From Octopus vulgaris (taxonomy: Eukaryota), in NCBI GenBank assembly GCA_951406725.2, contig OX597831.1, positions 75,330,001 through 75,394,000 of the forward strand: a stretch of DNA of 64,000 nucleotides, written 5' to 3'. The translations under genes were made by a program, and so were the position numbers. Each line of letters begins with the position of its first letter. Within the stretch, counting starts at the first letter, position 1. This document shows, piece after piece, positions 2,151 through 57,949 of this stretch. The notes beneath the pieces were generated by a model. It searched no databases. It was not told where the DNA came from and saw only the letters and a program-made list of their open reading frames with translations.

Positions 2151-2196
2151 TCTCCGATGAAGAGATATCCCTAATATCCCAGAAACAGCTGTCAGA
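2151..2196 (+). ncRNA. Minimal type I hammerhead ribozyme motif (Penelope-like), one core substitution
   Basis: UCU-CCGAUGA-A-GAGAUA/UAUCCC-A-GAAAC-AGCU-GUC^AGA. Helix I UCU/AGA, palindromic helix III loop, core U4 replaced by C. Confidence 0.6.
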
Positions 2197-2469
2197 CTAA
2201 CTTTCTCTTTATAAATGTCCTGAAAATTCCACACAGCCTTGGCTTTGTTGCCTCATTTTATTTAACACACATATATATACATATGTGTGTGTATATATAT
2301 ATATATATATGGTTGGTGTTAGGAAGGGCATCCAGCTGTAGAAACACTGCCAGATCAGACAGGAGCCTGGTGCAGCCTCCTGTCGAACCATCCAACCCAT
2401 GCTAGCATGGAAAACGGATGTTAAACGATGATGGTATATATATATATATATATATCACTTAGGCGTTGC

Positions 2470-2695
2470 AATACTAATAACCTGGCAGAGAACTCTATAT
2501 GTACGCTTCTGAACGAAGAGTAATAAGAACAGAAATGACAAAGGAATAAAACAATTATTTTATGAACTTCATTAGCTTACAGCTGTTTCCATGATAAGAT
2601 GCGGTGGACTCATGGTTGAGTGCCTGAAAAAGACATTACACTTCATGTTTATGGCTCTGACAAAACTCTAAAGTCTTACTCAGGCACTCAACTAT
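2470..2695 (-). mobile_element. Degenerate Penelope-like terminal repeat (same family as 52735-52922)
   Basis: Aligns by eye with 52735-52900 and retains GAAACAGCTGTAAGC on the minus strand but not CTGATGA. Short inverted copy TTACTCAGGCACTCAACTAT near 2676-2695. Confidence 0.5.
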
Positions 2696-2904
2696 ACACA
2701 CACATATATGCAGAAATGCTGGAGGAAGGATGATCTCAGGATGTGTAGACTCACAAAGGTGACAACAAAGAACCACAACAAGTGGAGAGACTGTGTTGAA
2801 ACAGATTTGTCCAACCCATGTCAGCATGGGAAAGCAGAAATTAAAAATAAGGATGTATCAGACAAAGCAGGCACCGTCATGCCTGTGAGTTTGATAAGTT
2901 CACT

Positions 2905-3020
2905 CTGAAGATAACAAGCTTAGATTTGATTCAATTTGCTTTTGTGCAAAGAAAAGGTGCCACTGACATTCTTTTCTTAGTGAGACAACTTCAGGAGAAT
3001 TTAACCTCTATAGCTAGCAT
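2905..3020 (+). mobile_element. RTE reverse transcriptase fragment
   Basis: Translates to LDLIQFAFVQRKGATDILFLVRQLQE, matching QFGFVPGRSTTDAIFLVRQAQE of the RTE at 55058-55705. Confidence 0.6.
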
Positions 3021-3081
3021 TTAATAATGGCTTACCATTTCTATCAATATATATATATATATATATATATATATATATACA

Positions 3082-4045
3082 CAGGGCAAAGTTCAGGGAG
3101 ATCCTACCCTTGATGGCAACAAAGGGTCACTCTCTCAGAGTGAAAGGCAGATTGTTTGATGCCTGTGTGTGAACAGCTGTGCTGCATGGCAGTGAAACAT
3201 GGGCTGAAACAGCCGAGGACATGCGTAGATTTGAGAGAAATTAAACCAGTATGCTTCGCTGGATGTGCAATGTCAGTGTGCATGTTTGACAGAGTGTAAG
3301 CATCATGAGAGAAAAGTTAGGCATAAGAGGAATCAGATGTGGTGTGCAAGAGAGACAACTGTGCTAGTATGGTCATGTGATGTATATGGATGAGAACAGC
3401 TGTGTAAAGAAGTGCTGCTCTCTAGCTGTGGAGGGGACCTGCGGTAGAGATAGACTCAGGAAACATGGGACAAGGTGGTGAAGCATAATCTTCAGACTTT
3501 GAGCCTCACAGAAGCAATGACTGGTGACCAAGACCTTTGGTGATGTGCTGTGCTTGAGAGGACCCGTCAAGTCAAGTGCACCTGTGCAGGTGGCACATAA
3601 AGAACATCTTTTGAATGTTGTGCATCACAGAGGCAAAGTGGCTGAGTTCTTCTGGAGCATTTGGCCTCACGGAGGCAAAGTGAATGAATGAATGAATTTT
3701 TTTCGAGTGTTGGGCCTCACAGAGGCAATGACCAAGACCTTTGACATTATATCATGCTTGAGAAGAAGACCCATCAAGCCGAGCAAAATTGCAGTCATGG
3801 CAGATACCAGTATCACACAAAATGGCAGCTGTGCCAGTGCCACGTAAATGCACCCTGGTGTCATGCAAATGGCACCTGTGACAGTGGTATGTAAAAGCAA
3901 CTATTAGACTCTCAGACCAGTTGGCATTAGGAAGGGCACCCAGCTGTAGAAAACCATGCCAAATCAGACTGGAGTTTGGTGCAGCCTTCCAGCATGCCAG
4001 TCCAGTCAAACTGTCCAACACATGCCAGCATGGACAACAGATGTT
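3082..4045 (+). mobile_element. 5'-truncated RTE LINE, pseudogenised C-terminus plus 3' UTR
   Basis: KFREILPL...LHGSETW...MLRWMCNVS...YGHVM motifs with in-frame stops, followed by the family B UTR. Confidence 0.85.
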
Positions 4046-4289
4046 GTATAAAAGAAAGAAAGAAAGAATAGTTGTCAGAGCAGAATATATATATATATAT
4101 ATCTTCAGATAGATTAACAGAAAAAAAGGATTTTATATCTATCTATCTATCTATCTATATATATATATATATATAGTGGTCAGAGTAGAATCCAAGAAAT
4201 GAAATATCTTAATTGTTTACAAGGATTGTTATTAGAAGTTATTGAGAGCTTCTGTTACCTAGGTGACTAAATAAACTGTGGTGGTGGGT

Positions 4290-56600: not shown

Positions 56601-56818
56601 CATCTACTCGCAATACCAGAGGGCGCACACTCTCCTACCCTGATGTAATCTCCAGGGATACAGGCATCCAGCAACAGGACCTCCGTAATACCATGATGGA
56701 CCGTGAAGTCTGGTGTAGCATGGTAAATTCCATTGTCTCGACCACGGTTGAACAATGATGATGATGATGATGTCTGGTGAGAATGAAATCTATCTGGCTA
56801 GCAGAGTCACCTGATTGA
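53640..56818 (-). mobile_element. Large pseudogenised RTE LINE (end of APE endonuclease, RT, PHD-like insert, C-terminus, 3' UTR)
   Basis: SQIDFILTR, QHRLV, YKGKGDALDTNNYRGIKLL, QFGFVPGRSTTDAIF, AFIDLEKAF, VGVNQG, FWYLG, LHGSETW; (ATG)n tail near 53640. Confidence 0.92.
56448..56772 (+). mobile_element. Different RTE-clade 3' end nested antisense in the large RTE
   Basis: RRVQFAGHCCR...LLWKP...MMDREVW plus a (GAT)n tail. The host frame ILTR|EWDAW rejoins when the insert is removed. Confidence 0.85.
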
Positions 56819-56896
56819 TATCTTTAAGCTAATGAAGTTCATAAGATAATTGTTTATTCCGTTTATATATATCTCGTTTATTTATATATATGTGAA

Positions 56897-57212
56897 GGTG
56901 CATGGCTTAGTGGTTAGGGCATTTGGCTCATGATCGAAAAGTCATGAATTTAATTCCTGGCGATGTATTGTGTCCTTGAGCAAGACTCTTTACTTCACGT
57001 TGCTCCTGTCCACTCAGCTGGCAAAAATGAGTTGTACTTGTAATTCAAAAGGCCAGCCTTATCACACCTTGTGTCACGCTGAATGTCCCTGAGAACTAAG
57101 TTAAGGGTACACGTGTCTATGGAGTACTCAGACACTTGCATGTTAATTTCATGAGTAAGCTGTTCTGTTGATCGGATCAGCAGGGACCCTCATTGTCGTA
57201 ACCAACAGAGTG
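56897..57212 (+). mobile_element. SINE family D
   Basis: Closely matches 4884-5200. Confidence 0.82.
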
Positions 57213-57326
57213 ATCTTTTTTGTATACATATGTGTGCGTGTGTGTGTGCATGTGTGTGTGCATGTGTGTGTGTGTGTGTGCGTGTGTGTATGTATGTATA
57301 TATATATATATGAATTTATATATATA

Positions 57327-57766
57327 GGCGCAGGAGTGGCTGTGTGGTAAGTAGCTTGTTTACCAACCACATGGTTCTGGGTTCAGTCCCACTGCGTGGC
57401 ACCTTGGGTGAGTGTCTTCTGCTATAGCCTCGGGCTGACCAAAGCCTTGTGAGTGGATTTGGTAGACGGAAACTGAAAGAAGCCCGTCGTATATATGTAT
57501 ATATATATATATATATATATATATATATATATATGTATGTGTGCGTGTTTGTGTGCCTGTGTTTGTCCCCCTAGCATTGCTTGACAACCGATGCTGGTGT
57601 GTTTATGTTCCTGTCACTTAGCAGTTCGGCAAAACAGACCGATAGAATAAGTACTGGGCTTACAAAGAATAAGTGCCGGGGTCGAGTTGCTCGATTAAAG
57701 GCAGTGCTCCAGCATGGTCGCAGTCAAATGACTGAAACAAGTAAAAGAGTAAAAGAGTAAAAAGAG
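57327..57766 (+). mobile_element. SINE family A, full length
   Basis: Complete head to AAAAGAGT tail repeats. Confidence 0.92.
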
Positions 57767-57913
57767 TATATATATTATATATATATATATATATATATAT
57801 ATATATATATATATATATATATATATATATATATATATATATATATATATACATACATGGTAGATCACTAGCCATTACACACATTTTTTCTCTCCTTGTT
57901 TCTTTCTGTGTCC

Positions 57914-57949
57914 CTTTCTGTAGAAGAGCGTAGGCTCGAAATGTAAAAG
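57914..57949 (+). ncRNA. Minimal hammerhead motif, A6U core variant, in a Penelope-like repeat (~57857-58040)
   Basis: CUUU-CUGUAGA-A-GAGC-GUAG-GCUC-GAA-AUGU-A^AAAG. Same family as 40377-40412. Confidence 0.55.

What the first reader, a model, noticed from the sequence alone, without database searches (positions are those of the whole stretch)
2151..57949. About seven Penelope-type hammerhead ribozyme motifs from several repeat families in 64 kb
Seen: type I hammerhead topology (helix I, CUGANGA-like core, helix II, GAAA, tiny helix III, NUH) at 2151-2196(+), 13016-13057(+), 22049-22083(+), 40377-40412(-), 46395-46480(+), 52842-52922(-) and 57914-57949(+). Each has complementary helix I arms and mostly palindromic or near-palindromic helix III (ACAGCUGU, ACGU, ACUCUGAGU). 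A GIY-YIG remnant lies at 21617-21812. Established: Penelope-like elements carry minimal hammerheads whose palindromic helix III is thought to allow cleavage as dimers. Inference: if this density holds genome-wide, a large unannotated ribozyme population could cut intronic or antisense transcripts.
Basis: partly seen in the sequence, partly recalled or inferred. Interest (0 to 1): 0.72.

Follow-up and report, generated by a model that had tools for sequence, protein, structure and literature searches.

The report
Decayed Penelope hammerheads, some variant cores
The seven self-cutting-RNA motifs are real but are decayed tail ends of very abundant jumping genes (shown to be Penelope-type for four of seven families), spread through this animal genome at roughly one per 12 kb; most copies here likely no longer cut, and the unusual part is that the biggest family carries a changed core letter (U at position 6) even in its intact young copies, with cutting untested.

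Summary
All seven motifs are present, plus an eighth (52275-52370): 4 loose-descriptor hits versus 0.2 in shuffles. Each lies in a dispersed repeat whose majority sequence restores a minimal type I hammerhead. Families A and B are 3' ends of Neptune-type Penelope-like elements, C and G of Hydra-type; E is probable, D and F unassigned. The density is genome-wide: 34 sites in 400 kb of evenly spaced samples, 21 structurally intact versus 0.43 shuffled. The window copies are decayed: none passes the strict descriptor, and they diverge equally inside and outside the motif. The GIY-YIG remnant is real but belongs to a separate insertion. Less ordinary: family A (12,983 exact hits) has U6 in 97 of 100 listed copies and in all 24 exact motifs behind its endonuclease, while positions 7 and 17 vary; most family B copies have C4. 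Only 8 of 21 intact motifs have the canonical core. Cleavage is untested, and no copy ends pile up at the cut. Penelope hammerheads are known (PMC4209133). This scan noted the U6 variant before in this genome and others.

The parts
2151..2196 (+). Family C hammerhead (Hydra-type PLE 3' end; copy spans about 1910-2275). Copy-specific U4C, helix II mismatch, shortened helix I
2519..2695 (-).
13016..13057 (+). Family D hammerhead (old family, 19 pattern hits, no coding partner found); 6-nt deletion removes most of helix II
21617..21840 (+). Broken GIY-YIG endonuclease remnant of Hydra type; part of a separate small repeat family, not the element of the 22049 motif
21976..22185 (+). Family B copy (Neptune-type PLE 3' end); hammerhead at 22049-22083, canonical core, U17, one helix II mismatch
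40288..40473 (-). Family A copy (Neptune-type PLE 3' end); hammerhead at 40377-40412 with family-wide U6 and a copy-specific helix III mismatch
46394..46481 (+). Family E hammerhead (copy covers at least 46302-46520); core, helix I and helix III intact, U.U at the base of a long irregular helix II; the best-preserved copy in the window
52275..52370 (+).
52842..52922 (-). Family F hammerhead (no coding partner shown); helix II mismatch and broken helix III palindrome
57856..58036 (+). Family A copy; hammerhead at 57914-57949 with family-wide U6 and a C15.2U change (wobble in helix III)

Best explanation
The motifs are minimal type I hammerheads carried in the 3' terminal repeats of at least seven dispersed repeat families (four shown, the others likely, to be Penelope-like retrotransposons), left here as 5'-truncated stubs that have decayed and likely no longer cut. 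Shown: family membership, restoration of the fold in each family majority, placement behind an RT/GIY-YIG frame for A, B, C and G, neutral decay of the window copies, genome-wide density, and conservation of the family A motif among source elements. Inferred: in tandem source elements (repeat-ORF-repeat; period 4.47 kb for family A) two motifs in one transcript pair through the palindromic helix III and cut slowly, probably helped by the element's protein, to release unit-length RNA. Reverse transcription from the 3' end into (TA)n tracts often stops early and leaves 0.2-1.3 kb stubs. U6 (family A) and C4 (most of B, and a young Hydra family) are inferred to be tolerated, slow core variants fixed in the source elements. 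Any effect on host RNA would be incidental.
For: Family majorities restore the motif. In family D, helix II was not in the search pattern yet pairs in 66 of 84 cells, against 20-37 when slid (14 of 19 copies of modal length). Family A: 24 of 31 endonuclease-anchored matches have the exact motif within 1450 nt, all CUGUUGA; 4 more have it mutated, still U6; 3 show none; intact 1024-1200 aa frames with DKG, CX4CxxC linker and YIG core. Family B: endonuclease upstream on the same strand in 4 of 20 extended loci. C and G: Hydra-type endonuclease about 1.1-1.2 kb upstream in one locus each. Fixed 3' and variable 5' ends. Selection in sources: two A subfamilies differ at 2 of 36 motif columns (positions 7 and 17) and 26 of 145 outside; in 28 unselected copies 2 of 36 versus 32 of 130 columns carry a second allele at 15% or more (Fisher p = 0.01). 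Dimer fold for C, F, G majorities. PMC4209133 (consensus, dimers), PMC11167929 (protein-assisted cutting), PMC3088659 (A6C slow but active; U4C tolerated in vivo).
Against: No cleavage data. No excess of family B copies starting at the predicted cut (16, mostly indel artefacts, versus 18 at a control position). The conservation test was not significant for B (p = 0.17) and showed no difference for C. The minimum-energy dimers of the A, B, E and young-Hydra majorities were not the double hammerhead. No coding partner was found for D or F; for E only an inverted endonuclease piece 1.3 kb upstream. C and G each rest on one locus. In an anole element, hammerhead-dead mutants still inserted in vitro (PMC11167929), so cutting may be dispensable.
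Confidence: 0.8

Rival explanations
1. The U6 and C4 motifs are catalytically dead, and the hammerhead-shaped RNA is kept in source elements as a folding or protein-binding signal; the elements spread without cutting.
For: Two very successful lineages carry changes at normally invariant positions. No copy ends at the cut site. Cutting was unnecessary for insertion in vitro in an anole element, and no RNA reads began or ended at the cut (PMC11167929). Naiads thrive without canonical hammerheads (PMC8557442).
Against: The positions free to vary in family A sources are 7 and 17, the two that catalysis tolerates; G17 is nearly absent (1 of 100). Natural A6C and U4C variants keep some activity (PMC3088659).
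Confidence: 0.35
2. One reading: the dispersed copies form a working ribozyme population that cuts introns or antisense transcripts and affects host RNA.
For: About 147,000 (95% interval 91,000-225,000) structurally intact motifs extrapolated from 21 in 400 kb. Shared palindromes (ACGU in A and B; ACAGCUGU in C and F) would allow mixed dimers in long pre-mRNAs.
Against: 0 of 8 window copies strictly intact; neutral decay; no host exon found; monomers inactive and dimers weak in vitro (PMC4209133).
Confidence: 0.1
3. The short families (A, B) are non-autonomous retrozymes that move as small RNA circles.
For: Many copies share near-fixed 5' ends, giving 180-215 nt units; one head-to-tail trimer of B.
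Against: The trimer junction occurs only at that one locus (2 matches). Longer copies run on into Neptune-type coding sequence.
Confidence: 0.07

Closest known systems
Minimal hammerheads (min-HHR) in pLTRs of metazoan Penelope-like elements (Cervera and de la Pena 2014, PMC4209133; results, discussion and supplement parts 1-2 of 3 read)
   Same: Type I topology, extra nucleotide after A9, palindromic tiny helix III, frequent U17, many families per genome, mostly single truncated copies.
   Different: None of their 56 listed representatives has U6 or C4. Families C and F have an extra A before G12 (one listed row has this), and E and G have U.U at the base of helix II. No cephalopod is in their list. 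The density here (order 10^5) exceeds their 4,000 and 9,000 for coelacanth and frog, though descriptors differ.
Neptune and Hydra clades of EN+ Penelope-like elements (Craig et al. 2021, PMC8557442; passages and the Hydra section read)
   Same: Family A source: DKG, CX4CxxC linker, tandem repeat-ORF-repeat. Young Hydra-type element: RWK, DKT, CxCX5C, under 3 kb. (TA)n targets; inverted 5'-truncated partner copies.
   Different: They report canonical hammerheads in these clades; here the Neptune A lineage has U6 and the young Hydra family has C4.
Natural core variants A6C, U4C, U3-A8 and U10.1.U11.1 (Perreault et al. 2011, PMC3088659; passages read)
   Same: Same positions altered; slow but detectable activity reported.
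   Different: Those were rare phage or viroid cases, with C rather than U at position 6; here the change is fixed in a family of tens of thousands of copies.
Small hammerhead variants of Penelope-like retrotransposons that cleave as dimers (Lunse, Weinberg and Breaker, RNA Biol 14:1499; not held, seen only as a citation in PMC6765202; content recalled)
   Same: Reduced stem III, dimer cleavage, very large numbers (recalled).
   Different: I could not check whether it lists U6 or C4 cores or octopus sequences.

Membership tests
PLE minimal hammerhead | Core CUGANGA ... GAAA ... UH in majorities of C, D, E, F, G and the U4 subfamily of B | tested here: met
PLE minimal hammerhead | Core CUGANGA in family A and in most family B copies | tested here: not met
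   U6 in 97 of 100 listed; C4 in 70 of 100 listed; counted by eye
PLE minimal hammerhead | Unpaired nucleotide after A9 followed by G10.1-C11.1 next to G12 | tested here: inconclusive
   Met in A and B; C and F have an added A before G12; E and G have U.U; unclear in D
PLE minimal hammerhead | Palindromic minimal helix III | tested here: met
   ACGU (A, B), ACAGCUGU (C, F), ACGCGCGU (G), ACGGUCGU (E, with wobble), ACUCNGAGU (D); dimer fold for C, F, G
PLE minimal hammerhead | Lies in the terminal repeat behind an RT plus GIY-YIG frame (families A, B, C, G) | tested here: met
PLE minimal hammerhead | Same, families D, E, F | tested here: inconclusive
   D: none in 19 loci with 1.5 kb flanks; E: inverted endonuclease piece only; F: none adjacent
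PLE minimal hammerhead | Self-cleavage as a dimer | not testable with these tools
   No raw RNA reads were listed; contigs cannot show ends
Neptune clade (family A source) | DKG motif, CX2-5CxxC linker, two cysteines before the YIG of a C-terminal endonuclease | tested here: met
   Read from intact frames of L313-L315; no tree was built
Hydra clade (element L193; relatives behind C, G and the window remnant) | RWK, DKT, CxCX5C, unit under 3 kb | tested here: met
   L193 and L291; C, G and the window remnant are assigned only by similarity of endonuclease or RT pieces
Non-LTR retrozymes | Non-coding tandem units each with a hammerhead, no coding parent | tested here: not met
   One B trimer only; A and B extend into coding sequence

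The most novel reading that the evidence does not exclude
Octopus-type Penelope elements run on an expanded hammerhead core code: U6 (about 63,000 copies, interval 29,000-120,000) and C4 lineages are working, deliberately slow or protein-gated dimeric ribozymes. More than half of the genome's roughly 150,000 intact hammerheads would then be invisible to canonical descriptors, and mixed dimers through shared palindromes could cut long host pre-mRNAs.
Probability: 0.25. Interest if true: 0.68.

Novelty: new variant of a known kind. Interest (0 to 1): 0.38.

Why it matters
As posed, this is an expected by-product of Penelope-like elements. It still gives a measured density (about one hammerhead-like site per 12 kb, one intact per 19 kb) for an animal group where I found no ribozyme report: a 2026 octopus repeat annotation has no occurrence of 'hammerhead' or 'ribozyme' in its main text. 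The U6 and C4 lineages are natural experiments on an open question, whether Penelope elements need their ribozyme to cut: young, near-identical, tandem source elements exist with altered cores. They also show that canonical descriptors miss 13 of 21 intact motifs here.

Tried and rejected
Rfam scan: no hammerhead among 150 of 163 listed matches. Link of the GIY-YIG remnant to the 22049 motif: rejected. None of the related loci whose rows were visible had family B downstream (24 other loci, middle of the output cut), and six continue into the same SINE-like piece, so B inserted at the end of a pre-existing composite. Family C motif next to the intact ORF in L193: rejected as a link, because it lies in an inverted duplication of flanking DNA and that element has its own C4 motif. 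Retrozyme reading of B: rejected. Copy 5' ends at the cut: a hint in local data failed the genome-wide test for B; not tested genome-wide for A. RNA: no RNA holder listed on record and no raw reads. Contigs guessed to be RNA carry family A in 4 of 4 runs, which cannot show ends, strand or level. A look for exons by laying contigs on the window's middle gave no result, so whether the window is intronic is open. A direct Pfam test of the window's remnant was not obtained; an intact Hydra-type ORF had no Pfam hit either. Alignment A1 had two rows misoriented and was replaced; the helix II test used a wrong length filter. Literature searches for U6 and for octopus hammerheads found no report in titles and abstract starts. 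The Lunse paper was not held, and its supplements, and those of PMC8557442, may list such variants.

Full report
Setting. The window lies on a chromosome-sized contig of a 2.8 Gb, 227-contig genome. At least 71% of it is repeat. I take the animal to be an octopus from its repeat landscape (inference; earlier scan notes say the same). No host exon was recognised: 103 frames in unmasked DNA gave only transposase and reverse-transcriptase domains and one sub-threshold hit.

Observation. All seven motifs are at the stated places. An exact-core descriptor gave 4 hits against 0.2 +/- 0.4 in 60 shuffles; with one core change allowed, 6 against 1.55 +/- 1.2. DNA searches of the genome placed the sites in repeats with 363 to 3,588 first-look candidates (40 scored each, 22-30 loci kept). 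The 13016 site gave only 2 matches, but a pattern with helix II left open found 19. I call the families A (40377, 57914), B (22049), C (2151), D (13016), E (46395), F (52842) and G (52275). In each, the majority sequence repairs what the window copy breaks. In D the unconstrained helix II pairs in 66 of 84 cells, against 20-37 when slid (14 of 19 copies of modal length).

State of the window copies. A strict descriptor (four contiguous helix II pairs, paired helix III, three helix I pairs) finds none in the window. Defects: C4 and a helix II mismatch (2151); a 6-nt deletion (13016); a helix II mismatch (22049); U6 with a helix III mismatch (40377) or wobble (57914); helix II mismatch and broken palindrome (52275, 52842). 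The 46395 copy keeps core, helix I and helix III. Summed by hand over seven copies, 31 of 433 columns differ from the majority inside the motif and 70 of 1035 outside, which is neutral decay.

What carries them. Family A: a partial tandem of RT, endonuclease and motif. Of 31 endonuclease-anchored matches, 24 have the exact motif within 1450 nt, 4 have it mutated and 3 show none. [quoted passage not shown] Family B: copies with longer 5' ends run into a related endonuclease in 4 of 20 loci; its single trimer is unique. C and G: a Hydra-type endonuclease 1.1-1.2 kb upstream on the same strand, one locus each. E has over 1.2 kb of shared non-coding upstream DNA joined to an inverted Neptune-type piece in one locus; D and F gave no partner. 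The window's GIY-YIG remnant matches an intact Hydra-type protein (33% over 84 aa, E 6e-7). It belongs to its own small family (134 candidates), whose other visible members lack family B downstream (output partly cut).

Density. In 40 evenly spaced 10 kb stretches the strict descriptor found 21 motifs against 0.43 +/- 0.56 in 30 shuffles. Seven family profiles found 24 copies, of which 11 pass the descriptor; the union is 34. That is one site per 11.8 kb, or about 147,000 intact motifs genome-wide (91,000-225,000, Poisson). Eight or nine in 64 kb is unremarkable (P = 0.18 and 0.10).

Core variants. Of the 21 intact motifs, 8 have CUGANGA, 6 C4, 5 U6, 1 U3-A8 and 1 C6. A family A pattern with positions 6, 7 and 17 open matched 12,983 places (reversed control 0). 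Of the 100 listed, 97 have U6; among those, position 7 is U 40, A 24, C 23, G 10; position 17 is A 75, U 24, G 1 (counted by eye; the list is the start of one contig). All 24 exact motifs behind endonucleases have U6. Two A subfamilies differ at 2 of 36 motif columns, positions 7 and 17, and at 26 of 145 outside. In 28 copies not chosen through the motif pattern, 2 of 36 versus 32 of 130 columns carry a common second allele (p = 0.01; copies had to align across the motif, a mild bias). The same test was not significant for B (p = 0.17) and flat for C. Family B matched 7,900 places; of 100 listed, 70 have C4, 28 U4, 2 A4, and 99 keep A6. A young Hydra-type family (over 130 of 150 scored matches identical in protein; 2.59 kb tandem) also has C4.

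Mechanism. Inferred: tandem source elements give transcripts with two motifs that pair through palindromic helix III. The predicted dimers of the C, F and G majorities take this fold; those of A, B, E and the young Hydra family, and of the decayed window copies, do not. Slow, probably protein-assisted cutting would release unit RNA. PMC4209133 (results and discussion read) found no monomer and low dimer activity. PMC11167929 (passages) found cutting only with the element's protein, no need for it in insertion in vitro, and no reads ending at the cut. PMC3088659 (passages) reports A6C below 0.1 per minute and U4C tolerated in a viroid. I put working but slow U6 at about even odds against a dead fold kept for binding. 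Against frequent use of cut RNA as template, family B copies show no excess of starts at the cut (16 versus 18).

Comparison and verdict. Families C to G and the U4 part of B fit the published minimal hammerhead, with small differences at the base of helix II. Family A and most of B fail the invariant-core test, yet keep the fold and the genomic position. None of the 56 representatives in the PMC4209133 supplement (parts 1-2 of 3 read) has U6 or C4, and my searches (listings only) found no report. The Lunse paper could not be read, so priority is uncertain. This scan noted U6 before, in this genome (e1-9897094, e1-9863077) and in others; I had reached it independently. The finding is real and mostly expected. 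The host-cutting inference is unsupported, and the lineage-fixed core variants are the part worth a bench test.

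Noticed in passing
L193:3434-5950; L291; window 46136-46224: A very young Hydra-type Penelope family: over 130 matches identical in protein, intact 717-aa frames, 2.59 kb tandems, inverted duplication of 2.6 kb including flanking DNA at L193; its hammerhead has C4. A piece of its 3' tail lies just upstream of the 46395 site.
   Followed up: partly
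L313-L322: A young Neptune-type family A subfamily with dozens of equal-scoring copies and 1000-1200 aa open frames; likely recently active.
   Followed up: partly
window 21617-21975: The GIY-YIG remnant and the following SINE-like piece form a composite found at six other loci, which suggests a mobile chimera; family B inserted at its end here.
   Followed up: partly
window 39527-39592 and 43154-43218 (minus): Two family A fragments that begin at the same position, about 25 nt after the predicted cut, and lack the hammerhead.
   Followed up: no
window 14350-18900: A 4.5 kb nearly pure (TTA)n microsatellite.
   Followed up: no
window 20280-21324 (minus), 42076-42861, 55058-56422 (minus), 58885-59500 (minus), 25532-26781: Transposon remnants: Tc1/mariner-like (DDE_3 hit at 20280), LINE reverse transcriptase (RVT_1 hit at 55061); the others are assigned by eye from translations only.
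   Followed up: no
L234, L244, L246, L249, L250, L255: Further hammerhead motifs outside the seven profiled families in the random sample, two of them as inverted pairs a few hundred bases apart.
   Followed up: no
L197:3090-3760: A unique head-to-tail trimer of family B (about 220 nt period) with three same-strand canonical-core motifs; a natural setting for dimer cleavage, though two units have helix II changes.
   Followed up: partly
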